Shown in pieces: positions 493 through 8,073 of a stretch of 8,073 nucleotides of DNA. The notes under the pieces are model-generated. The model did not search any database. It saw only the letters and a list, made by a program, of their open reading frames with translations, and was not told where the DNA came from. Origin of the DNA: a virus (Duplodnaviria; Heunggongvirae; Uroviricota; Caudoviricetes). The DNA lies in the IMG/VR virus record IMGVR_UViG_3300039367_000078; one strand, written 5' to 3'. Each line of letters starts with the position of its first letter. The stretch's first letter is position 1. The translations under genes and the position numbers were made by a program.

Positions 493-1008
493 TTAACGTG
501 ATTTCTTTTTCACCTGTACAGAGTGATCATGCTGGCACTGTTCAGGATGACGACACGCTTCCACTTCCACGCATGCCGCACAGAGTCCATGTGCTTCAAT
601 CACATTATGCCGCAGGGCAAACCCCATTTTTGCCGCCAGCGTATGCATAATGTCTTCCACGCCTTCTGCACATTCTTCTTTCACTGCGCCGCAGCGATCG
701 CAAATAAACATGGCTGACGTATGCGTGGGCTGGTCGAACAGATGACAGAGCACATAACTGTTGGTGGATTCCACCTTATGCACAAAACCTTGCTCAAGCA
801 GAAAATCCAGCGCGCGATAAACCGTTGGCGGCTTGGCTTGCGGTTCAGCTTCGCGCAGCAAATCAAGCAGATCATAAGCGCTGATAGCGCCATCCTGCAG
901 ACTCATCAGGCGCAACACTTCCAGGCGCTGTGGGGTCAGGCGCACATTACGCTGCGCGCAGATTTTTTCAGCCTGCGCTAATAACTCCTGCGTTGTGGTC
1001 TTTTCCAT
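493..1008 (-). CDS. zur: Zinc uptake regulator Zur (Fur family), 171 aa
   Basis: Minus-strand translation from ATG (plus 1006..1008) reads MEKTTTQELLAQAEKICAQRNVRLTPQRLEVLRLMSLQDGAISAYDLLDLL...HGLCAACVEVEACRHPEQCQHDHSVQVKKKSR, which I recognise as E. coli Zur with its Cys/His metal-binding motifs. The ORF-track N-terminal 20-residue extension (MFFLEHGKVRTFLTPTLRCP) is not part of the protein. Confidence 0.93.
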   Translation of the reverse strand: MEKTTTQELLAQAEKICAQRNVRLTPQRLEVLRLMSLQDGAISAYDLLDLLREAEPQAKPPTVYRALDFLLEQGFVHKVESTNSYVLCHLFDQPTHTSAMFICDRCGAVKEECAEGVEDIMHTLAAKMGFALRHNVIEAHGLCAACVEVEACRHPEQCQHDHSVQVKKKSR

Positions 1009-1325
1009 CGGGCACCTCAAAGTGGGGGTTAAGAATGTCCTTACTTTACCATGTTCCAGGAAAAACACCGAGAACCCTTATTGTTGCCGTAATGTTGATT
1101 TTCTGTTTTGTACGTAAGGTGTTGTGTTGCCTGGTCGTACCATTATCAACACGATAATAATTAATACTTCATTTTTAAATAAATTGCTTTAAGTTAACTC
1201 GCTATTTATTTAACTGGGGTTGATCGCATACCTGTACTTCAGAAATTATGAGCGATTTTTGATAGTGAGCAGATGGCAAAAGAATTATAAGGAGGACACG
1301 GTACGACAAAAAAGGTGCGTATATC

Positions 1326-2330
1326 ATGTCAGGTATAATTTCAAGTGCAACAGAATTCTTCAATAATACACTCCATTCAAATCAATACGAAATTAAAGAT
1401 GCGAGCAAAGAAAAAATAAAGGATATATATAATAAATCGGTTGATTATGCAACGATGAGTAATCGCGCTGCGATTATTGCAAAAATAGATTTGTTTATTC
1501 AGAGAATCACCCATAATTTATGGACTGCAAGTGATAATAATGTTTCCTTAATTAAGCGAATAGATGCTCTCAAAAATTGGGTTGAGGAGTGTATTGATCA
1601 GTGCACTAATGAGCAATTAGGTGATCGTGACTATATTTCTGCATTTGTGGATCGGGCGATTTTTCATTACGCGATGAATTTTGTTTGTAATCCAATGGAA
1701 AATAGCGATGTAACTCTAATAGACAAGTGTACTTTCGACGTAATAAATCATAATGGCCTTCCCTCCACGATTCAGCTATTTTATGATAAATCCTATTGTA
1801 AAGCACCTGTAGCGTCATTACATCTAAAAACAGTAAGCGAAGGCTTTTTAAATTTGGAAAATGCATATAATGTAAAGAAAGATACTCGCTTAAGACCCCT
1901 GGCCTCCCTTTTACTTTCATTTTCATATGATAGTGCATCAGCAGATATCATAGGAGCAGCAGAGAGAGTTAATGATGATTGTGAAAACTACATAAAAAGT
2001 CAGATAAAAATATTATCTCGTCAAGTGATGAAAAAAAACCTGGCGGAGCTGAAAGACTTGATAGATAAAAAAGAATTGGATTTTAATGTAATTCTGCAGG
2101 AGATGAAAAATCAGGCCGGAGAAGAAAAAGAAGACATCAAAAACATTACAAAAATGCAGGCTGCAGGTGAGACTTTAATTAAATTTATTCAATCATTTGA
2201 CCCGGACTCAACGGGACCAATTATAATTGGTAAAGATATGGATGACAAAAATATAAATGACAACGATCTAATTAACGAAGATATTATTAAGTTCATTTAT
2301 GTCCTATTAGGTACTGAGTTAGAAAAATAA
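1326..2330 (+). CDS. Hypothetical protein, 334 aa, strongly AT-rich codon usage, no recognisable catalytic motif; occupies the variable zur-dusA interval
   Basis: Long uninterrupted ORF starting at ATG 1326; the in-frame stop at 1266..1268 excludes any longer N-terminus; GGTG at 1314..1317 is about 8 nt upstream. Followed by a strong intrinsic terminator. Protein is rich in Asn/Lys/Ile/Asp with a low-complexity acidic C-terminal third ([32 protein letters not shown]...[20 protein letters not shown]). I cannot place it in any family from sequence alone. Confidence 0.7.
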
Positions 2331-2371
2331 AATGTGAATTTTCCCTATAGCATGGAAGTTTTTACATAAAA

Positions 2372-2399
2372 GAACCCAATATTGATTGGGTTCTTTTTT
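2372..2399 (+). terminator. Rho-independent terminator downstream of the 334-aa gene
   Basis: Perfect 9-bp stem GAACCCAAT (2372..2380) / ATTGGGTTC (2385..2393) with 4-nt loop ATTG, followed by TTTTTT (2394..2399). Confidence 0.75.
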
Positions 2400-2602
2400 C
2401 TCTATCAGTGCTATTAGCAGGGAGAGATATCACCGTAGTTTAATGTGTGATTTTTATTTATCGTCGAACCTGGATTGTTTATCATTGGCCTTAACAAAGC
2501 TAACGGCTAATAAGATTATTTCCATCACTTCGTGAGAGCTTCATGCCTTGAGAGGATCTCAATTTTCTTTTGCAATGAGACAGGCGCTTCCTGTTGTTAT
2601 GG

Positions 2603-2608
2603 TATAGT
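2603..2608 (+). promoter_or_regulatory. Candidate extended -10 element (TGgTATAGT) of the native dusA promoter
   Basis: TGG+TATAGT at 2600..2608, about 85 nt upstream of the dusA-fragment ATG at 2692; no convincing -35 at 17-bp spacing. Weak, pattern-based. Confidence 0.2.
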
Positions 2609-2691
2609 ACCCCGCTATTGAGCCTCCTGAACAGTGATGCTGAATAACATAACTCAATGATATATCGATAAAATAATCTCTACATTTGAAA

Positions 2692-2814
2692 ATGCACGGT
2701 AATTCTGAAATGCAAAAAATCAACCAAACCAGCGCAATGCCTGAAAAAACTGACGTTCACTGGAGTGGTCGGTTTAGCGTTGCACCAATGCTCGATAGGA
2801 TGTACCGTTTTTGA
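2692..2814 (+). pseudogene. dusA: Displaced 5' fragment of tRNA-dihydrouridine synthase A gene (first 35 codons of dusA, then 5 non-native codons and stop)
   Basis: Translation MHGNSEMQKINQTSAMPEKTDVHWSGRFSVAPMLD-RMYRF*. The first 35 residues match the E. coli DusA N-terminus as I remember it (MHGNSEMQKINQTSAMPEKTDVHWSGRFSVAPMLDWTDRH...); similarity stops at 2796/2797. ORF is only 40 codons, so it is absent from the six-frame track. Confidence 0.8.
2770..2800. other. Putative attL junction (crossover region) of a dusA-integrating element
   Basis: The point where the dusA reading frame stops matching DusA (after codon 35, position 2796) marks the chromosome/element boundary; the recombination core should lie in the roughly 20-30 bp ending here. 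Exact limits cannot be set without the other junction or an empty-site sequence. Confidence 0.45.
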
Positions 2815-2871
2815 AAAACAACTAGTTATACACTTTGTGGGAGCCTATTGGGAACCTGAAGTTTTGCTCTT

Positions 2872-2891
2872 TCTATTCATATCTATTCATA
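2872..2891. repeat. Perfect tandem direct repeat, 2 x TCTATTCATA
   Basis: TCTATTCATA at 2872..2881 and again at 2882..2891, about 75-95 bp inside the putative att junction and about 30 bp upstream of the candidate cargo promoter. Confidence 0.85.
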
Positions 2892-2916
2892 AAGCACCAT
2901 TTGCTGCCTTATCTGA

Positions 2917-2945
2917 TTGACCAAAAACAACCGCGGTTATAGACT
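2917..2945 (+). promoter_or_regulatory. Candidate sigma-70 promoter for the two-gene cargo module
   Basis: TTGACC (2917..2922), 17-bp spacer, TAGACT (2940..2945); a CTAAG...CTTAG palindrome (about 2959..2975) lies just downstream near the predicted transcription start; GAGG RBS at 2990..2993 precedes ATG 2999. Confidence 0.3.
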
Positions 2946-2998
2946 TTGCTCCAAATAGCTAAGGCTATTGCTTAGTAAGTAAAACAGTTGAGGTTGCC

Positions 2999-3538
2999 AT
3001 GAATCCGTTTAACGCCATTACTTTTGCTGCATTGTGCGGGCCTCTGGCTTGTCCTGCTGCTATGGCGCAGGAGTTCATCATCCAGCCAGCCCCTGTGATT
3101 GCTAAACCTTTTGAGTACTCTCCTTCTGTTGAGGAATTCTCACGCAAAATGGAAGAGGGTAAGGAGATCTTGCAAAAGTTAACAATTGCAGCAGATGACT
3201 ACTATATCTGTTTGATTGATCTTAATAGCCAAGATGCTCGCGAGTTTGTTTCCAAAAACGGGACAGATACGACAGAGGCATGCGAAATGTTCCTGCGTGC
3301 TTTTGAAGAAGAAGTGAAGCGTACAATTGAATCGCCTCTGCCTGAATTTATCAGGTCAGAACTGAAGGTTTACTGGCGTCATATTGCTAAAGCTCGCTCA
3401 TCTGTCACTCGCCTTAACAATTACATAAAGAGCATATTTAAAGAAACTGTTACTTTTAGCGGGCGCGCGGATCTTGCTGGAATTGCAGCACTAGCTAGTC
3501 ACACATCAAATAAGCTAAAATCGATGCAATTTCACTAA
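2999..3538 (+). CDS. Hypothetical protein, 179 aa; first gene of the cargo pair and candidate non-canonical antitoxin/partner of the YafO-like toxin
   Basis: ORF with GAGG 5 nt upstream of ATG 2999; stop TAA 3536..3538 lies 16 nt before the next ATG. N-terminus (MNPFNAITFAALCGPLACPAAMAQEF) is hydrophobic but has no basic n-region, so it is not a convincing signal peptide. No Phd/YefM, RHH or HTH signature recognisable by eye. Confidence 0.65.
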   Translation: MNPFNAITFAALCGPLACPAAMAQEFIIQPAPVIAKPFEYSPSVEEFSRKMEEGKEILQKLTIAADDYYICLIDLNSQDAREFVSKNGTDTTEACEMFLRAFEEEVKRTIESPLPEFIRSELKVYWRHIAKARSSVTRLNNYIKSIFKETVTFSGRADLAGIAALASHTSNKLKSMQFH

Positions 3539-3554
3539 CCGATAGCGGACGACC

Positions 3555-3989
3555 ATGCATCTAGAAGTCTCTATTAATCCAGAAACTAGAGCTGAATTTT
3601 TTGATGAAGTTTTTCTCAAATTCCCGGAGCTAGAGTCTTCTATCATTGATGATTTCAAGAGATACAAAGCAACCGGTGAGCTTCCGCATTATTTCGGTAG
3701 GGACGTTGCGTATACTCAGCCTTATGGTGCTTTTCGGGCTGGGTTGATGCATATCCATCTTTGTCTACCGCCAAACAAGTTTCCCGAGAAACTTCCACAA
3801 CCGGATAGGGTCTGCAAGAAAGGTGATCCTGATAATGATGCTTGTCTTGTGTATGTCCAAGGTGAGCTTTATGAGAATAAATATTCACTCATTGCTATTA
3901 TGTATCCCGATGCACATGAAAAAGCAAGAAAACATGATGTGATGAGCTATCTGGCGCGAATTGCCCAGAATTATAAAGATGAAAACTAA
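3555..3989 (+). CDS. YafO-family toxin-like protein (putative ribosome-dependent mRNA interferase), 144 aa
   Basis: Translation contains DFKRYKATGELPHYFGRDVAYTQPYG...LMHIHLCLPPNKFP...DACLVYVQGELYENKYSLIAIMYPDAHEKARKHDVMSYLARIAQNY, which aligns by eye with my recollection of E. coli YafO (DFISYKRDGVLPDTFGRDALYDD...VAHIHLANENNPFP...EAHLVYCQGAFDEQAWLLIAILKPEPHKLARDNNQMHKIGKMAEAF). From memory, not verified by search. Confidence 0.65.
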   Translation: MHLEVSINPETRAEFFDEVFLKFPELESSIIDDFKRYKATGELPHYFGRDVAYTQPYGAFRAGLMHIHLCLPPNKFPEKLPQPDRVCKKGDPDNDACLVYVQGELYENKYSLIAIMYPDAHEKARKHDVMSYLARIAQNYKDEN

Positions 3990-4009
3990 CCCGCCGAAGC
4001 GGGTTTTTT
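3989..4009 (+). terminator. Rho-independent terminator closing the cargo module (partly bidirectional, between convergent genes)
   Basis: Stem CCCGC (3990..3994) / GCGGG (3999..4003) with CGAA loop, extendable by A-T pairs, followed by TTTTTT (4004..4009); lies between the convergent stops at 3989 and 4016. Confidence 0.75.
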
Positions 4010-4015
4010 GTGAGA

Positions 4016-4288
4016 TTAGTTATTTATTTTCCTATTTGTTCTTACCCTCTCCCATTCAATTCTGCCTTCTTCACGCCGTTTATCTATATATTCAGCAAGA
4101 TCCTGAATGTTGATGCAGCGCTTTGCTTTCTGTGATGTACCAACACGATAAGTCGGGATCGGCAACTGGCATGCATTTGCTTTCGCTTCTGCTGTGTTAG
4201 GGCTCATACCGAAATACTTTTGGCATACAGCTGACAGCTCAATGTTTGGGGTATTGAATTCAGCCATCAGTAAAAACAAGGTGTTCAT
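4016..4288 (-). CDS. PrtN/AlpA-like small phage transcriptional regulator (pyocin-activator-like), about 90 aa
   Basis: Translation MNTLFLLMAEFNTPNIELSAVCQKYFGMSPNTAEAKANACQLPIPTYRVGTSQKAKRCINIQDLAEYIDKRREEGRIEWERV... resembles PrtN-family proteins (MNT-FLLMAE...CEKYFG...). Start ATG at plus 4286..4288 chosen because GGAG lies 6 nt upstream on the minus strand; the ORF-track start at 4315 is a GTG without RBS. Confidence 0.65.
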   Translation of the reverse strand: MNTLFLLMAEFNTPNIELSAVCQKYFGMSPNTAEAKANACQLPIPTYRVGTSQKAKRCINIQDLAEYIDKRREEGRIEWERVRTNRKINN

Positions 4289-4324
4289 AATTTTCTCCAT
4301 CAAAACCGGCTGCACCCGGGAAAA

Positions 4325-4897
4325 TCATAATTCTGTGCTGGTGGCAGGAATTAATTTCTGCCAGATAGCGGAAACATATTTTGCCTGATGACGGGCATCA
4401 GCCAGGGCGTTGTGCCGTTCGCCATCGAAAGGCATGTCCATTTTGGGGTCGAATCCGATGGAACGCCCAAGCGTAACGATCGTGCGTACATCGTGGTCAT
4501 TCCAGTATGCCCACGGGCAGATTTGTCCTGCTCGCTCATAAGCTCCACGTAAAATTACGTTGTCGAAGGTGGCTCCGTTACCCCAGACTTTTAAATATTT
4601 CGTATTGTCTGCGTGCCGGTTAATGAAATGATTTAGTTCTGAGAGAGCATCGCTGATCGACAAAGTATCATCAATACAGATTGCAGCTCGTGCTTCAGGG
4701 CTTTGTTTCAACCACCACAGGATGGTATCGCCGTCAGGTGTAGCTCCTAGCTTCATAGCACTGTCCAGGCTAACAACCGTATAGAATTCTTGTCCGATGT
4801 CTCCGGTTTCTGGAGTGAAGAACACCGCGCCAATGGAAACGATCGGTGCATCCTTATTTTTCCCCATCGTCTCAAGGTCGATCATTAAGTTGTTCAT
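4325..4897 (-). CDS. DEDDh-type (DnaQ-like) 3'-5' exonuclease, phage-encoded, about 190 aa
   Basis: Exo I motif in MIDLETMG, Exo II-like region around LKVWGNGATFDNVIL and Exo III H-x4-D motif in HNALADARHQAKYV. Start ATG (plus 4895..4897) shares one nucleotide with the upstream stop (TGATG); AAGAGG lies upstream. Confidence 0.8.
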   Translation of the reverse strand: MNNLMIDLETMGKNKDAPIVSIGAVFFTPETGDIGQEFYTVVSLDSAMKLGATPDGDTILWWLKQSPEARAAICIDDTLSISDALSELNHFINRHADNTKYLKVWGNGATFDNVILRGAYERAGQICPWAYWNDHDVRTIVTLGRSIGFDPKMDMPFDGERHNALADARHQAKYVSAIWQKLIPATSTEL

Positions 4898-5706
4898 CAC
4901 TTCACCTCTTGTGATGGTTTTGCTGCAAAATACTCGATACCTTTATCCCAGATAGATTTTATGGTCGACCACGTGACTGGCACTTTAATTTCAATACGTC
5001 CGCTCCCGTCACAGGTATCGCAATCATCATCGCCAAAGCATTCCAGGCAGCTTATAAACGTAGTTTCTGAAAATTCACCGGATAGCGCCCCCTTAGCGCC
5101 GTTCTCGGCTGTTAGTCTCTTCGGCACCATAACCCAACCATCCGGAGTTACCGGAGAGTTGCCAGACAGTGCGTTCTGCAATCGTTCCAGCTTAACGTAT
5201 TCCTGAACCCTGTTTCCGTCGCACGCCTGAAGCCATTGCACAGCCTTTTGCGCATCAGTGTGAAAGGTACAAGTGCGACCGTCATCAAATTGCATTTCGT
5301 AGAGGTCAGCAACCTGTTTAAACTGCGTTTGTGGCAACTTGTAAGCCTGGCTTGCAGGTACGGCACCATAGAGCATGGCAGCTCGGCAGGCGTTCCAGCC
5401 TTCATCAAAACCGACTATGCCATTATTTAAAGATGGACGAGCATCTGGCACCACCGGCACTGGCTTGGCTATATATAGCGGCTGAACATACCAGCCCTTT
5501 GATAACCAACTGTCAGCAATGTTTTTACTCCTAGTTATTGCCGGAATACCTAAGCCATTGTCTGAATGCAGCCATGCCACCGGATCCTCTTCCAGCGATG
5601 CCAGAGCAATTTCATAAGCACGGCGCTCAACATTGTCTCGCACGTCCATGCTGCTGATTCGTTCTTTGATTTCTTTAATCAGTTCTTTATCGGTAAATGT
5701 GGTCAT
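4897..5706 (-). CDS. Hypothetical phage protein, 269 aa, with C-terminal CxxC...CxxC zinc-ribbon-like motif
   Basis: ORF starting ATG (plus 5704..5706) with GGAG upstream; C-terminal segment ISCLECFGDDDCDTCDGSGRIEIKV has two CxxC pairs. Start overlaps the preceding stop by one nucleotide (TAATG). No family recognised. Confidence 0.7.
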   Translation of the reverse strand: MTTFTDKELIKEIKERISSMDVRDNVERRAYEIALASLEEDPVAWLHSDNGLGIPAITRSKNIADSWLSKGWYVQPLYIAKPVPVVPDARPSLNNGIVGFDEGWNACRAAMLYGAVPASQAYKLPQTQFKQVADLYEMQFDDGRTCTFHTDAQKAVQWLQACDGNRVQEYVKLERLQNALSGNSPVTPDGWVMVPKRLTAENGAKGALSGEFSETTFISCLECFGDDDCDTCDGSGRIEIKVPVTWSTIKSIWDKGIEYFAAKPSQEVK

Positions 5707-6068
5707 TATGCTCCAGCCTCCGGTGCTTTTGGCATTACTGCCCAGTGAGTGATATTGACGTTTTCAAGGTCCCCGACCTGAAATGTCCACTGCCATTCTC
5801 CGGTTTCTTTTTGCCCCCATGTATACCAGAGAGAACGCCAGCCAATCAGCCAGCCTTCTCCATTAGCATCAAATAACAGAATACTTTCATTCGCTGGCGG
5901 CAGTTCAGCTGACACTGGTATTACTTTGTTTTCCAGTGCTGCACATTTAGCTTCAAGCGCATCAAATTTACGCACCAGGTACTCAGCATTTGTTTCATTC
6001 ACTTTCAGATCTCGTGGTACACATTTCCCGCGAAGAAACCCTTCCATTTCGAAAACATTCATGCGCAT
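5706..6068 (-). CDS. Small phage protein, 120 aa, Trp-rich (possibly DUF551/YfdS-like)
   Basis: Translation ...ILLFDANGEGWLIGWRSLWYTWGQKETGEWQWTFQVGDLENVNITHWAVMP; GGAG 8 nt upstream of the first ATG (plus 6066..6068); an alternative ATG at 6060..6062 forms an ATGA overlap with the upstream stop. Family assignment from memory and tentative. Confidence 0.65.
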   Translation of the reverse strand: MRMNVFEMEGFLRGKCVPRDLKVNETNAEYLVRKFDALEAKCAALENKVIPVSAELPPANESILLFDANGEGWLIGWRSLWYTWGQKETGEWQWTFQVGDLENVNITHWAVMPKAPEAGA

Positions 6069-6595
6069 TTGCGTAACTCCGATAACTCGTTAAAACGTTC
6101 CATAAACATCCCATAGGCATGGCCTGGCGACAGTGGAATAACTTTGAACATCTCTGTTGCCGGGATACCTTCCAGTACAGGCCAGAAAGAGCCATCATCA
6201 AGCCCGAGATCGCGGCGTTCGGTTGCCAGCATGATGAGATCGGCATATTTCACGGGCGTGCTCATAACCGGGGGTAACCCGTATTTCTCACGGATTACGG
6301 CGTCTATTTTTTCTTCCATCCGTTTATAGTCAGGAAGAAGGCGTTTCAGTGGCGCGGGGATGTCCTGGCAATACGCTTCTGTTGCATCATGCATTAATGC
6401 TTCAAAAGCAAATTCCTGCGGTACCAGCTGGCTGCAAAGCACCGCATGTTGGGCGACGCTGTAGAAATGTGAAAGATGTCCTGCAAAGCGACAGATATTT
6501 GAAAGAGAAACCGCGATATCGTTAATAACGATGTCGTCTTTATTTATCCTGTCATAATAAAAATGCTTCCCGGAAAAAGTTTTAATAAATGACAT
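6059..6595 (-). CDS. HD-domain phosphohydrolase, YfdR/YfbR-like 5'-deoxynucleotidase family, 178 aa
   Basis: Motifs H..H (AGHLSHFYSVAQHAV) and HD (EALMHDATEAY) typical of HD-domain nucleotidases. Start ATG at plus 6593..6595 (MSFIKTF...) preferred over the ORF-track start at 6622 because GGAG lies 6 nt upstream. Confidence 0.8.
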   Translation of the reverse strand: MSFIKTFSGKHFYYDRINKDDIVINDIAVSLSNICRFAGHLSHFYSVAQHAVLCSQLVPQEFAFEALMHDATEAYCQDIPAPLKRLLPDYKRMEEKIDAVIREKYGLPPVMSTPVKYADLIMLATERRDLGLDDGSFWPVLEGIPATEMFKVIPLSPGHAYGMFMERFNELSELRKCA

Positions 6596-6672
6596 TTTGT
6601 TCTCCACGTATATGCGCTGCACCGCGCTGAATTCTGGTAAAAGGAAGCCCTCACCATCCGGCGATTATTGAG

Positions 6673-7548
6673 TTAATTACGTTTCCATAAATGCCCCCGC
6701 AGGGGCATTTGCAGTAATGAAATCAGGCGGTGAAAGTACNNNNNNNNNNNNNNNNNNNNNNNNNNNNNNNNNNNNNNNNNNNNNNNNNNNNNNNNNNNNT
6801 TAGCCATTTCTTCCTGCACTGCTTCCAGCTGAATAATGCGCAGAACCAGTACAGGACGATCGCCAGTGATAATGCTGAGGCGTAATTTAAATGGACGTTC
6901 TTTCAGACCTTCAAACGGAACGCATTTAAATTCAAATGCCACTGGCATAATATCTTTGGTCTTCGCTTCGACAGACTCCATCAGGGAGCGTTTGCCGCTG
7001 AAGTCATTATCTTCAAAATCAGCGGTCTGGTTTGCTTCAATCGTGATTTTACGGACTGCCGCAGCCGCTTTTGTTGCCTGAATAGCGTCACCATTAGCAT
7101 CAAAGCCCACAAGGTAGTCGGCCCAGTCTTCAATCCATTCTGCCAGTGACTTCTGGGAGTTACGCTCGCCATTAACAGACAACAGAGCAGAGAACGGTGC
7201 TGTCTTTTTCAGTTTGAGAGTGGCGGTGTTATCTGCGTGACCTGGTTCATCAATAGTACCCAGGTTAATCACACTGACGGCTCGCATATTATCGGCATCG
7301 ATAAAGCAGCGGGTGCCTTCATCTGCAAGATCTTTAGAATAACGGGTAAAGTCATCGATGCTGGCAGTGGAAAGCGCACCACGGAAACGGAAGCGATTTA
7401 AATTAAATTTCTCCAGATCATGAATGCGGAAATTCTCAGGCAATGCCACAGCATCGGCACCAATCTTACTGATAATTTCATTAACACCCTGAGCAGAAAT
7501 AAGGGCATGGATTTGATTAATTGCGGTTGCGTCTAAGTTCTGAGACAT
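6673..7548 (-). CDS. DUF2303/YfdQ-like prophage protein; 3' end unresolved because of the N-run
   Basis: ORF from ATG (plus 7546..7548; GAGGA 4 nt upstream), translation [67 protein letters not shown]... Well supported from 7548 down to 6800. The post-gap tail (6673..6739, [21 protein letters not shown]) spans the hairpin and looks non-coding, so the true stop is probably in or near the gap. Confidence 0.6.
6689..6710. other. Perfect 9-bp inverted repeat / hairpin (AAATGCCCC-cgca-GGGGCATTT)
   Basis: Seen directly in sequence, located between the YfdQ-like gene and the YfdR-like start. No adjacent U-tract on either strand, so not a canonical intrinsic terminator. Confidence 0.6.
6740..6799. 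other. Run of 60 N (assembly gap or masked sequence)
   Basis: Literal n characters in the input; falls in the 3' region of the YfdQ-like ORF. Confidence 0.99.
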
Positions 7549-7613
7549 AATAAGTCCTCACTATATAAAGATATTCAGTGATGAGATAAATAATCGGTTA
7601 ATTAAGAACGATA

Positions 7614-7976
7614 TTAATGACCTGCTGCGCGGAGTTTTCCGTCAGGTTCACCGGCAAGAGTCAGTAATTGTCCCTGGTCTTCCTGCAGAATAGTCAGGCG
7701 ACCACCGCGATTGACATACATCGGCGTTTCGGTGGTGTCTTCTTCGGAAATTTTCCCGCGGTTAGTTGGGCGAACATATGAGAGTTTGTGTTTGATTTTC
7801 ACACGGTTCTCATCAAACGGTTCGATTTCCAGATTGAGTGAGACCTTCCCTTTGGTTTTCGTGTTCATCACACCGGAAGCGACCTCACTGAGAACTGCGC
7901 CGATTTTGGTTTCAAATACGCCGCCGTCCAGCTCCCCGATAAATGCCTGCACATCAGTACTGCGTTCGCTAGCCAT
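7614..7976 (-). CDS. Hypothetical small prophage protein, 120 aa (YfdP-like position in the operon)
   Basis: Start ATG at plus 7974..7976 (MASERSTDVQAFIGELDGG...) with GAGGAG 6 nt upstream; the ORF-track start at 7994 is less likely. Confidence 0.65.
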   Translation of the reverse strand: MASERSTDVQAFIGELDGGVFETKIGAVLSEVASGVMNTKTKGKVSLNLEIEPFDENRVKIKHKLSYVRPTNRGKISEEDTTETPMYVNRGGRLTILQEDQGQLLTLAGEPDGKLRAAGH

Positions 7977-8073
7977 TTTGCTGCTCCTCATCATATCGAC
8001 CCTGCAAGGTCGGTTGGTTTCTCCACAAAACAGAGAAGAACACCTGCGGTGGCAGCCGCCCGGATGGATTGGG
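7969..8073 (-). CDS. Possible 3' end of a further minus-strand phage gene entering from beyond the window (partial)
   Basis: Minus-strand frame open from 8073 to a TAG at plus 7969..7971 (...PNPSGRLPPQVFFSVLWRNQPTLQGRYDEEQQNG*), overlapping the next start by 8 nt in the same coupled style as the rest of the operon. Only 34 codons visible. Confidence 0.25.
   Translation of the reverse strand, partial: PNPSGRLPPQVFFSVLWRNQPTLQGRYDEEQQNG

What the first reader, a model, noticed from the sequence alone, without database searches (positions are those of the whole stretch)
1326..2330. AT-rich 334-aa orphan gene between zur and dusA
The gene is markedly more AT-rich than the flanking yjbJ/zur core genes and has an AT-rich upstream region (1140..1325) and a perfect terminator, a profile typical of horizontally acquired and H-NS-silenced genes. 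I recall E. coli K-12 carrying two short uncharacterised genes (yjbL, yjbM) in this interval, so this may be a strain-specific replacement or a longer variant; I cannot tell which. The protein has a low-complexity acidic, Lys/Asn/Asp-rich C-terminal third and no motifs I can assign. It is a candidate stand-alone effector or defence-related protein in a variable hotspot.
Basis: partly seen in the sequence, partly recalled or inferred. Interest (0 to 1): 0.5.

Follow-up and report, generated by a model that had tools for sequence, protein, structure and literature searches.

The report
Intact divergent allele of yjbL-yjbM
The AT-rich 334-codon gene is a real, intact and very divergent version of the uncharacterised E. 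coli gene that K-12 carries broken in two (yjbL + yjbM, family DUF2713); it is catalogued already, its function is unknown, and its notable feature is how variable and how often inactivated it is within one species.

Summary
A 334-codon ORF at 1326..2330 (+) has 33% G+C against 52% for zur, with an AT-rich leader and a 13-bp-stem terminator.

It is not an orphan. It scores 194.9 bits on Pfam DUF2713, and RefSeq holds near-identical copies (WP_022646425.1).

It is the full-length counterpart of K-12 yjbL + yjbM. Those two genes are halves of one gene split by an A8 to A7 slip. The K-12 allele is only about 49% identical in protein.

Among 5,426 complete E. coli genomes:
- 4,284 carry a DUF2713 gene at this locus.
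- 364 of them carry window-type alleles.
- About 1,960 carry the A7 frameshift.
- About 1,140 appear to have zur next to dusA with no gene, though only one such genome was inspected.

Allele classes differ by 20-45% in DNA (dS 0.5-0.85, dN/dS 0.4-0.65), while the flanks differ by 0-5%.

The family was found only in E. coli/Shigella, plus a few longer paralogues on mobile-looking contigs.

An AlphaFold model (pTM 0.76) has no relative among solved or viral structures. There is no defence-library hit and no catalytic motif.

Published K-12 ChIP data support H-NS silencing. Function remains unknown. I favour a non-enzymatic binding protein in some genetic conflict, at low confidence.

dusA here is only a 105-nt stump, cut by a lambdoid prophage.

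The parts
493..1008 (-). zur, the conserved left flank. It is transcribed divergently from the DUF2713 gene.
   Evidence: RefSeq annotation of the near-identical locus L001; ORF list. Divergence among strains is 0-6%.
1076..2691 (+). AT-rich cassette of about 1.6 kb. It is present in about 79% of complete E. coli genomes and absent from the inspected 'empty-site' genome.
   Evidence: Homology with the empty-site genome L017 stops at window ~1075 and resumes only inside dusA.
1069..1325 (+). AT-rich leader and promoter region (35% G+C). Candidate -35/-10 elements lie at 1132-1137/1156-1161, matching the K-12 yjbLM promoter proposed by Shimada et al., and at 1259-1288.
   Evidence: 93.4% identity to K-12 over 1100-1325. 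PMC3946193 gives the promoter proposal. PMC3661553 gives the promoter island and H-NS binding in K-12. No promoter was verified here.
1175..1213 (.). Inverted repeat TTAAATAAATTGC / GCTATTTATTTAA: 13-nt arms with a 13-nt spacer, in the leader.
   Evidence: The sequence is conserved in K-12. Its function is unknown.
1312..1317 (+). Shine-Dalgarno-like AAGGTG, 8 nt before the ATG.
   Evidence: Read from the sequence.
1326..2330 (+). DUF2713 gene, 334 aa. It is the intact, window-type allele of yjbL-yjbM.
   Evidence: PF10897, 194.9 bits; RefSeq WP_022646425.1.
1326..1445 (+). Codons 1-40, an N-terminal segment predicted to be disordered. In K-12-type alleles this segment holds 0-2 copies of a 10-aa KDKLD-type repeat.
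   Evidence: pLDDT below 50 for residues 1-40; alignment A2.
2031..2038 (+). A8 homopolymer inside the ORF, a possible slippage site in this allele. The K-12-type A8/A7 site corresponds to window ~1533-1540, which is not homopolymeric here.
2244..2288 (+). Allele-specific 45-nt insert encoding [15 protein letters not shown] (aa 307-321).
   Evidence: Alignments A1 and A2.
2368..2403 (+). Intrinsic terminator: 13-bp stem, 4-nt loop, then a T-run.
   Evidence: It is conserved in K-12.
2692..2796 (+). Resident 5' end of dusA (35 codons), cut off from the rest of the gene.
   Evidence: RefSeq pseudogene annotation in L001; alignment with K-12 dusA.
2797..8073 (.). Left end (attL side) of an mEp460-like lambdoid prophage integrated in dusA. 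This is context, not part of the gene.

Best explanation
Shown:
- The ORF is an intact allele of the E. coli-restricted gene that K-12 carries as the frameshift-split pair yjbL + yjbM (Pfam DUF2713).
- It lies in a roughly 1.6-kb AT-rich cassette in the variable zur-dusA interval.
- Within the species the gene is extremely polymorphic and mosaic. It has been inactivated repeatedly.
- Its structure model is mostly helical with a small sheet and a disordered first 40 residues. It has no signal peptide and no membrane segment. It has no relative among solved or viral structures.

Supported by literature for K-12 and inferred here: the cassette is xenogeneic DNA bound and largely silenced by H-NS.

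Inferred at low confidence (about 0.25 for this step):
- The product acts by binding a partner rather than by catalysis. Across the wider family only a few hydrophobic or structural residues stay conserved.
- The partner is itself variable, for example a component of a phage or other mobile element, or a host factor. That would drive allele diversification.
- Lineages that no longer meet the partner lose the gene by frameshift, IS insertion or deletion.
For: Identity:
- PF10897 scores 194.9 bits against a cut-off of 27. RefSeq names it a DUF2713 family protein.
- The alignment with K-12 is collinear through both yjbL and yjbM. The K-12 stop is caused by a 1-nt loss in an A-run.

Restriction:
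- All named hits among 5.8 billion proteins are E. coli, apart from one partial record labelled Klebsiella pneumoniae.
- An HMM search of 1.84 billion representatives gave 58 hits.
- The scan of one genome per species found only E. coli and Shigella.

Polymorphism:
- Divergence is 20-45% inside the ORF and 0-5% in yjbJ, zur and dusA.
- dS is 0.5-0.85 and dN/dS 0.4-0.65 between allele classes. One allele (L004) matches the window over the first 60 codons (dS 0.09) and then diverges (dS 0.7-0.9).

Decay:
- About 1,959 of 2,035 genomes with the K-12-type sequence context differ from the A8 probe by one position over a 59-nt span, read as A7.
- The same -1 sits on backgrounds that differ by 6%. 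There is an independent +1 frameshift and there are IS1 insertions.
- About 1,140 genomes have no gene.

Still coding: the frame is kept open across saturating divergence and dN/dS stays below 1.

Other: no catalytic motif is conserved. H-NS binding is from PMC3661553.
Against: - No experiment or homology bears on the function. The 'binding partner in a conflict' step is inference from evolutionary pattern alone.
- dN/dS of 0.4-0.65, a frameshift in nearly half of carriers and complete absence in a fifth of genomes fit equally well with a gene drifting toward loss.
- dS of 0.5-0.85 within one species is not explained by selection on the protein. It needs ancient alleles, imports from unknown donors or a raised local mutation rate.
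- H-NS binding was not measured for this allele.
Confidence: 0.6

Rival explanations
1. A decaying relic. The gene arrived once by horizontal transfer, has no current function in most or all E. coli, and is being lost by drift. The intact window allele is simply a copy not yet hit.
For: - An A7 frameshift is inferred in about 1,960 genomes.
- There are further independent frameshifts and IS1 insertions.
- About 21% of genomes lack the gene.
- dN/dS is high for an E. coli gene, at 0.4-0.65.
- H-NS silencing is reported in K-12.
Against: - Five of eight sampled alleles keep an open frame of 318-334 codons despite dS of 0.5-0.85 in 33% G+C DNA. There a random frame would close within about 13 codons.
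- dN/dS is consistently below 1.
- Blocks such as [17 protein letters not shown] and DRAIFH are invariant across alleles.
- The core is still recognisable in paralogues of 20-26% identity.
Confidence: 0.3
2. A single-gene anti-phage defence or abortive-infection protein in a chromosomal hotspot next to the dusA phage attachment site.
For: - The gene is hypervariable, shows presence/absence, is often inactivated and is AT-rich. That is the general profile of defence genes.
- It sits directly upstream of an attB used by lambdoid phages.
Against: - There is no hit to any of 5,027 PADLOC models.
- No nuclease, NTPase, TIR or SIR2-like motif or fold was found.
- The flanks are core genes rather than a defence island.
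- The weak HEPN_Apea hit (E 0.15) appears in 1 of 17 family members, and the candidate His is not conserved.
- The window strain carries a prophage at the adjacent attB despite an intact gene.
Confidence: 0.1
3. A secreted substrate or effector of a type III system (LEE or the degenerate ETT2), diversifying against host targets.
For: - The N-terminal 40 residues are predicted disordered and are rich in Ser/Thr/Asn/Ile.
- A distant paralogue (P0145) lies beside a gene with a SopD-type N-terminus plus pentapeptide repeats, i.e. PipB2-like, on a KfrA-bearing contig.
- The AT-rich, H-NS-silenced, lineage-specific profile resembles that of effector genes.
Against: - The gene is present in K-12-like commensals with no working T3SS.
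- No chaperone gene is adjacent.
- The adjacency evidence rests on one metagenomic contig. Other paralogue contexts show only IS fragments, hok/gef and an AIDA-type gene.
- No known effector domain was detected.
Confidence: 0.07
4. A prophage moron, or a remnant of an old dusA-integrated element.
For: - The gene matches PHROG families phrog_29005 (E 4e-61) and phrog_28007.
- It lies next to the dusA attachment site.
- The empty-site genome has a different dusA 5' end that diverges exactly at the att point.
Against: - No protein-level match in 50,697 phage genomes.
- No DNA match except the 108-nt dusA 5' mimic.
- No BFVD fold match.
- The dusA 5' end beside the gene is the type also found on native Salmonella dusA. 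The occupied state therefore looks resident and the empty state derived.
- The PHROG families are most simply explained by prophage boundaries drawn too wide. This was not tested.
Confidence: 0.05

Closest known systems
E. coli K-12 yjbL (b4047) + yjbM (b4048); Pfam PF10897 DUF2713
   Same: - Same chromosomal slot between zur and dusA.
- Same leader (93% identical) and same terminator.
- Collinear protein alignment over the whole length.
- The DUF2713 HMM matches aa 85-305.
   Different: - A single 334-aa ORF instead of 84 + 235 aa.
- About 49% amino-acid and 68% nucleotide identity to K-12.
- It lacks the 10-aa N-terminal repeat of K-12-type alleles.
- It carries a 15-aa acidic insert near the C-terminus.
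- The K-12 A-tract frameshift site is not homopolymeric here.
Other H-NS-silenced, AT-rich 'promoter island' genes of K-12 (Panyukov & Ozoline 2013, PMC3661553)
   Same: Low G+C, predicted foreign origin, H-NS binding at the leader in K-12, and lineage restriction.
   Different: That is a class defined by regulation and composition, not by function. H-NS binding was not measured for this allele.
Hyper-polymorphic E. coli loci replaced by recombination in conserved flanks (e.g. fliC, O-antigen clusters, hsd); comparison from general knowledge
   Same: Sharp rise of divergence inside the locus with near-identical flanks, mosaic alleles, and diversity that decays gradually into the flanks.
   Different: Those loci encode surface antigens or restriction specificity with known selective agents. 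This product has no export signal, no known partner and a high rate of pseudogenisation.
Longer DUF2713 paralogues (P0145, P0150, P0160, P0176; about 400-430 aa)
   Same: Shared core (AKLDxFxQxITxxLW, DRxIF, SLLISxSY, C-terminal IxxLLG) with HMM E-values of 1e-14 to 1e-7.
   Different: - They carry an extra N-terminal region of about 150 aa.
- Identity to the window protein is 20-26%.
- They lie on short contigs with IS fragments, hok/gef, KfrA, an AIDA-type gene or a PipB2-like gene.
- The two probed (P0145, P0150) are absent from the 5,426 complete E. coli genomes.

Membership tests
Pfam DUF2713 (PF10897) | Whole-protein HMM score above the curated gathering threshold (27 bits). | tested here: met
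   194.9 bits, E 2.2e-57, aa 85-305 on profile positions 2-221 of 235.
yjbL-yjbM locus (orthologous or allelic) | Same position between zur and dusA with homologous flanks. | tested here: met
   Leader 93.4% and downstream 83.3% identical to K-12. Gene order is the same in L001-L007.
yjbL-yjbM locus (orthologous or allelic) | Collinear homology to both K-12 genes, which together form one reading frame once the frameshift is repaired. | tested here: met
   Alignments A1 and A2. K-12 has CGTAAAAAAATG (A7) where intact alleles have A8.
HEPN (Apea-like) RNase | HMM score above the gathering threshold, and a conserved Rx4-6H catalytic motif. | tested here: not met
   12.9 bits against a cut-off of 24.4, E 0.15. 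Only 1 of 17 family members hits. The only candidates are RITH (Rx2H) and RAIFH (Rx3H), and His114 is not conserved in paralogues.
Known anti-phage defence systems (PADLOC-DB v2) | Match to any component HMM. | tested here: not met
   0 families at E up to 1.
H-NS-silenced xenogeneic genes | G+C well below the genome average, including the promoter region. | tested here: met
   ORF 0.33, GC3 0.287, leader 0.354, against zur 0.52.
H-NS-silenced xenogeneic genes | H-NS occupancy and de-repression in an hns mutant. | not testable with these tools
   Only K-12 literature is available: the zur/yjbL promoter island is marked as H-NS-bound in all studies compared (PMC3661553).
Type III secretion effectors | Disordered, polar N-terminal secretion signal. 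| tested here: inconclusive
   pLDDT is below 50 for residues 1-40. Ser, Thr, Asn and Gln make up 10 of the first 25 residues (read). This is not diagnostic.
Type III secretion effectors | T3SS-dependent secretion or translocation, or linkage to a chaperone or T3SS genes. | not testable with these tools
   No chaperone-like ORF lies next to the gene. One paralogue sits next to a PipB2-like gene.
Phase-variable contingency genes | Homopolymer tract in the ORF with in-frame and out-of-frame lengths both present in the population. | tested here: inconclusive
   In K-12-type alleles, A8 occurs in 73 genomes and A7 in about 1,959, on at least two backgrounds. That ratio looks like a largely fixed lesion rather than switching. 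The window allele has no tract at that site but has an A8 at 2031-2038.
Phage-encoded proteins (moron) | Homologue present in sequenced phage genomes. | tested here: not met
   tblastn against 50,697 phage records gave no match. BFVD gave no match. PHROG hits exist but are unsupported by any phage genome.

The most novel reading that the evidence does not exclude
DUF2713 proteins are a new-fold family of conflict proteins that recognise a variable target. They could be, for instance, a sensor or decoy acting on phages that use the adjacent dusA attachment site, or a secreted effector. Under this reading, diversifying or balancing selection maintains the deep allele classes, and the frequent frameshifts are adaptive switch-offs.
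Probability: 0.12. Interest if true: 0.7.

Novelty: already known. Interest (0 to 1): 0.33.

Why it matters
The gene is catalogued (Pfam DUF2713, RefSeq WP_022646425.1), so it is not a discovery in itself.

Three points are useful:
- The K-12 'genes' yjbL and yjbM should be read as one disrupted gene. The intact form, as in this window, is the right object for any functional study.
- This species-restricted gene shows allele divergence comparable, by my recollection, to that between E. coli and Salmonella orthologues (dS 0.5-0.85), inside near-identical flanks. It also shows repeated inactivation. That makes it a compact natural test case for telling conflict-driven diversification from the decay of silenced foreign DNA.
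- The held literature contains no paper that mentions DUF2713, so even a simple phenotype would be new.

Tried and rejected
- HEPN toxin: the weak Pfam hit was rejected.
- Defence libraries: no PADLOC or NCBIfam hit.
- Sequence search of PDB chains with the family profile: only E of about 1.
- AFDB Foldseek library: unavailable.
- Phage origin: no DNA or protein match apart from the dusA 5' mimic.
- Plasmid origin of the long paralogue P0145: no plasmid match. The two paralogues probed by DNA are absent from complete E. coli genomes.
- Salmonella STM4242, which sits in the same interval: unrelated (hhalign probability 0.1). It is a TraF_2-type outer-membrane protein.
- Rfam on 900-3000: nothing near a gathering score.
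- Fur-box consensus in the window: none within 3 mismatches.
- 'Cassette is a relic of a dusA-integrating element': considered. I then down-weighted it, because Salmonella's native dusA shares the 5' end that lies beside the gene.
- Literature: searches for yjbM are swamped by B. subtilis YjbM and a journal acronym. Nothing functional for the E. coli gene was found.

Full report
1. THE OBSERVATION

The ORF at 1326..2330 (+) starts with ATG and has no upstream in-frame start. It encodes 334 aa. Its G+C is 0.33 (GC3 0.287), against 0.52 for zur and 0.42 for yjbJ. The 257-nt leader is 35% G+C.

A Shine-Dalgarno-like AAGGTG lies 8 nt before the ATG. A terminator with a 13-bp stem, a 4-nt loop and a T-run lies at 2368-2403.

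An open frame of 334 codons in DNA of this composition has a chance probability of about 6e-12. The product is acidic (pI 4.96), with no hydrophobic stretch long enough for a membrane helix and no signal peptide.

Two details need correction. First, the gene is not family-less. Second, dusA is represented only by its first 105 nt (2692-2796), after which a prophage begins.

2. WHAT IT IS

The protein scores 194.9 bits on Pfam DUF2713 (cut-off 27). RefSeq annotates the near-identical locus in other genomes as 'DUF2713 family protein' WP_022646425.1, between zur and a truncated dusA.

K-12 has yjbL (84 aa) and yjbM (235 aa) in the same slot. Aligning the two loci gives:
- leader 93.4% identical;
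- downstream region 83.3% identical, with the terminator conserved;
- coding region only 67.9% identical, with 79 gap columns.

Translating K-12 from the yjbL start gives HNLWHARKKMCF*. Intact relatives read HNLWHARKKNVFLIEQ. The K-12 sequence CGTAAAAAAATGTG has seven A where intact alleles have eight. yjbL and yjbM are therefore the two halves of one gene broken by a homopolymer slip. The window carries an unbroken gene of a different allele class, about 49% identical in protein.

3. DISTRIBUTION IN E. COLI

With the K-12 allele as query, 4,284 of 5,426 complete genomes hold a match at this locus:
- about 3,920 are K-12-type (at least 80% identity);
- 364 are window-type (60-80% identity).

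With the window CDS as query, 198 genomes match at 99% or more, 8 at 95-99%, 21 at 80-90% and 4,044 at 60-80%.

About 1,140 genomes have no match. In the one example I inspected (L017), zur is followed after 155 bp by dusA. A composite zur + dusA probe shows 1,124 records in a lower-identity band, where the sampled records match only the zur half. That agrees in number with the genomes lacking the gene. Only 2 genomes have a simple deletion within K-12-type flanks. That all of these genomes share the L017 arrangement is inferred from the counts, not checked genome by genome.

Homology between the window and the empty-site genome stops at about 1075. It resumes inside dusA at ...ATGCTCGA|CTGGACGG. 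That is the same point at which the window's prophage is inserted.

4. POLYMORPHISM

I aligned seven loci across yjbJ to dusA. Mean pairwise difference is:
- 0-5% in yjbJ and zur;
- 10-13% in the leader;
- 14-31% inside the ORF (up to 50% for single pairs);
- back to 2-4% at dusA.

Between allele classes, Nei-Gojobori dS is 0.5-0.85 and dN/dS is 0.37-0.65. Window against L003 (334 aa, 77% aa identity) gives dS 0.17 and dN/dS 0.65.

Allele L004 is nearly identical to the window over the first 60 codons (dS 0.09). It then diverges (dS 0.7-0.9), which points to intragenic recombination.

The N-terminal region of K-12-type alleles holds 0, 1 or 2 copies of a 10-aa KDKLD-type unit. The window-type alleles have a 15-aa acidic insert near the C-terminus.

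The frame is open in five of eight sampled alleles despite this divergence, and dN/dS stays below 1. The sequence has therefore been under selection as a protein.

5. INACTIVATION

A 60-nt probe carrying A8 finds 2,035 genomes with that sequence context. Of these, 73 match exactly and 1,959 differ at one position. The sampled hits span 59 nt in the target, which means A7.

The same -1 lies on allele backgrounds that differ by about 6% plus a 36-nt indel (K-12 and ATCC 8739). Strain 503025 has an independent +1 at position 805, on a background 99.8% identical to an intact 340-aa allele. IS1 insertions occur in at least two genomes.

Roughly 36% of genomes carry the A7 lesion and 21% have no gene. 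At most about 43% of complete genomes can have an intact copy. This upper bound is arithmetic, not a direct count.

6. TAXONOMIC RANGE AND RELATIVES

A search of 5.8 billion proteins gave 117 hits. All named hits were E. coli, apart from one partial record labelled Klebsiella. Adding distant members to the query raised this only to 134.

An exhaustive HMM search of 1.84 billion cluster representatives gave 58 hits. Most are fragments of the same gene. A scan of one genome per species found only E. coli and Shigella; that scan depends on two peptide patterns.

A handful of distant relatives (20-26% identity) exist. Some carry an extra region of about 150 aa at the N-terminus. They come from gut metagenomes and rare E. 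coli drafts. Their contigs carry:
- IS fragments, hok/gef and an AIDA-type gene;
- in one case, a KfrA gene and a gene with a SopD-type N-terminus plus pentapeptide repeats.

The two I probed by DNA are absent from the complete E. coli genomes. P0145 has no plasmid match.

7. STRUCTURE AND MOTIFS

With alleles only, AlphaFold gave pLDDT 55. With the distant relatives added it gave pLDDT 74.8 and pTM 0.76.

In that model residues 1-40 are disordered. The rest consists of a three-helix unit, a three-stranded sheet (135-166), and five further helices including a long one at 217-247.

Across the wider family only K53, W66, L98, F113 and nearly R110/I112 are conserved. That does not look like an active site. 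PADLOC and NCBIfam gave no hits. The HEPN_Apea hit (E 0.15) is noise: 1 of 17 members, and the motif is not conserved.

PHROG families phrog_29005 and phrog_28007 match strongly. However, no phage genome among 50,697 encodes a relative. I therefore take those families to come from prophage predictions that ran over the neighbouring attL. This is my interpretation and was not tested.

8. REGULATION (LITERATURE)

In K-12, the zur/yjbL intergenic region is one of the 'promoter islands'. It is marked as overlapping a predicted genomic island, as associated with predicted foreign genes, and as bound by H-NS in all ChIP studies compared (PMC3661553).

A constitutive sigma-70 promoter, TTGTCG-18-AATAAT, was proposed for yjbLM (PMC3946193). 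The window has TGGTCG at the -35 position.

A phylostratigraphy study lists yjbL-yjbM as a young operon of unknown function (PMC12218254). No held paper mentions DUF2713.

9. THE INTERVAL AS A HOTSPOT

Lambdoid phages such as mEp460 and SKA5 carry, next to their integrase, a 108-nt copy of the dusA 5' end. It is 81-84% identical to window 2689-2796. The gene order beyond it matches window 2999 onward: a hypothetical 178-179 aa protein, a PrtN-like excisionase, an exonuclease, DUF551 and so on.

The window therefore shows the attL side of such a prophage. The resident dusA 5' stump was left beside the DUF2713 gene.

Salmonella houtenae has the same type of dusA 5' end on its native gene. Between zur and dusA it holds unrelated cargo: STM4242, a TraF_2-type outer-membrane protein, plus a dehydrogenase.

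The inspected empty-site E. coli genome has a different dusA 5' end that diverges exactly at the att point. My inference is that the occupied state is the resident one. The empty state would then have arisen when a dusA-integrating element supplied a new 5' end and a deletion removed the rest. This is not demonstrated.

10. MECHANISM AND VERDICT

Identity, distribution, polymorphism and decay are shown. H-NS silencing is supported for K-12 and inferred here. The function is not known.

I commit, at about 0.25, to a non-enzymatic binding protein engaged with a variable partner. I give the relic reading 0.3, and smaller weights to defence, effector and phage-moron readings.

The high synonymous divergence within one species remains unexplained by any of these readings.

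The gene is already catalogued and near-identical copies are in RefSeq, so novelty is 'already known'. Interest is moderate to low. The useful outcomes are the re-reading of yjbL/yjbM as one broken gene and the documentation of an unusually divergent, repeatedly inactivated, species-restricted locus.

Noticed in passing
window 2692-2796 / 2797 onward: dusA is cut after codon 35 by an mEp460-like lambdoid prophage. The window shows its attL side. Free phages carry a 108-nt mimic of the dusA 5' end next to their integrase, which restores dusA at the other end.
   Followed up: yes
L017 5140-5400 (NZ_CP195364.1), compared with window 1075 and 2796: About 1,100 E. coli genomes appear to have zur directly next to dusA. 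In the inspected genome, dusA is 331 aa and has a different N-terminus (MPAESHTVYPAYRFSIAPMLDW). It diverges from the K-12 type exactly at the phage attachment point. This suggests an element-supplied 5' end followed by a deletion. Only one such genome was inspected.
   Followed up: partly
L020 1778-4618 (Salmonella enterica subsp. houtenae): The same zur-dusA interval in Salmonella holds unrelated cargo: STM4242, a TraF_2-type outer-membrane beta-barrel, and a zinc alcohol dehydrogenase. The interval is therefore variable across genera.
   Followed up: partly
L002 2038-2070; L007; L025; L026; L027: The K-12 yjbL/yjbM split is an A8 to A7 slip. It is shared by about 1,959 complete genomes, on at least two allele backgrounds that differ by about 6%. 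Only 73 genomes have A8 in that context. Strain 503025 has a separate +1 frameshift at position 805.
   Followed up: yes
L013 3842-4777 (-) and 4847-5401 (-): A distant DUF2713 paralogue (P0145, 397 aa) lies on a metagenomic contig next to two genes. One has a SopD-type N-terminus plus pentapeptide repeats (PipB2-like, effector-like). The other is a KfrA plasmid gene.
   Followed up: partly
window 2999-3538 (+) and 3555-3989 (+): Just inside the prophage lie a 179-aa protein with a signal-peptide-like N-terminus (phrog_8416, unknown function) and then a YafO-family toxin gene. No recognisable YafN-type antitoxin precedes the toxin gene.
   Followed up: no
window 2248-2220 (- strand): A near-consensus sigma-70 promoter-like site, TTGTCA-17-TATAAT (11 of 12), lies antisense inside the 3' end of the ORF. 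Overall promoter-like counts in the region are no higher than in shuffles.
   Followed up: no
window 1175-1187 / 1201-1213: A 13-nt inverted repeat (92% complementary, 13-nt spacer) lies in the shared zur/DUF2713 leader and is conserved in K-12. It may be an operator. No Fur-box consensus is present in the window.
   Followed up: partly
window 6740-6799: A run of 60 N (masked or unresolved sequence) lies inside the yfdQ-like prophage ORF. It appears as X in the translation.
   Followed up: no
alignment A2, columns 29-50 (aa ~28-30 of the window protein): K-12-type alleles carry 0, 1 or 2 copies of a 10-aa unit (KDKLDNIDAT / KDKLDNRGTI) in the disordered N-terminal region. Window-type alleles have none.
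   Followed up: no
PHROGs phrog_29005 and phrog_28007: Two PHROG 'viral' families correspond to the YjbM-like and YjbL-like parts of this chromosomal gene. Yet no phage genome among 50,697 encodes a relative. They are probably artefacts of prophage boundaries drawn across attL.
   Followed up: partly
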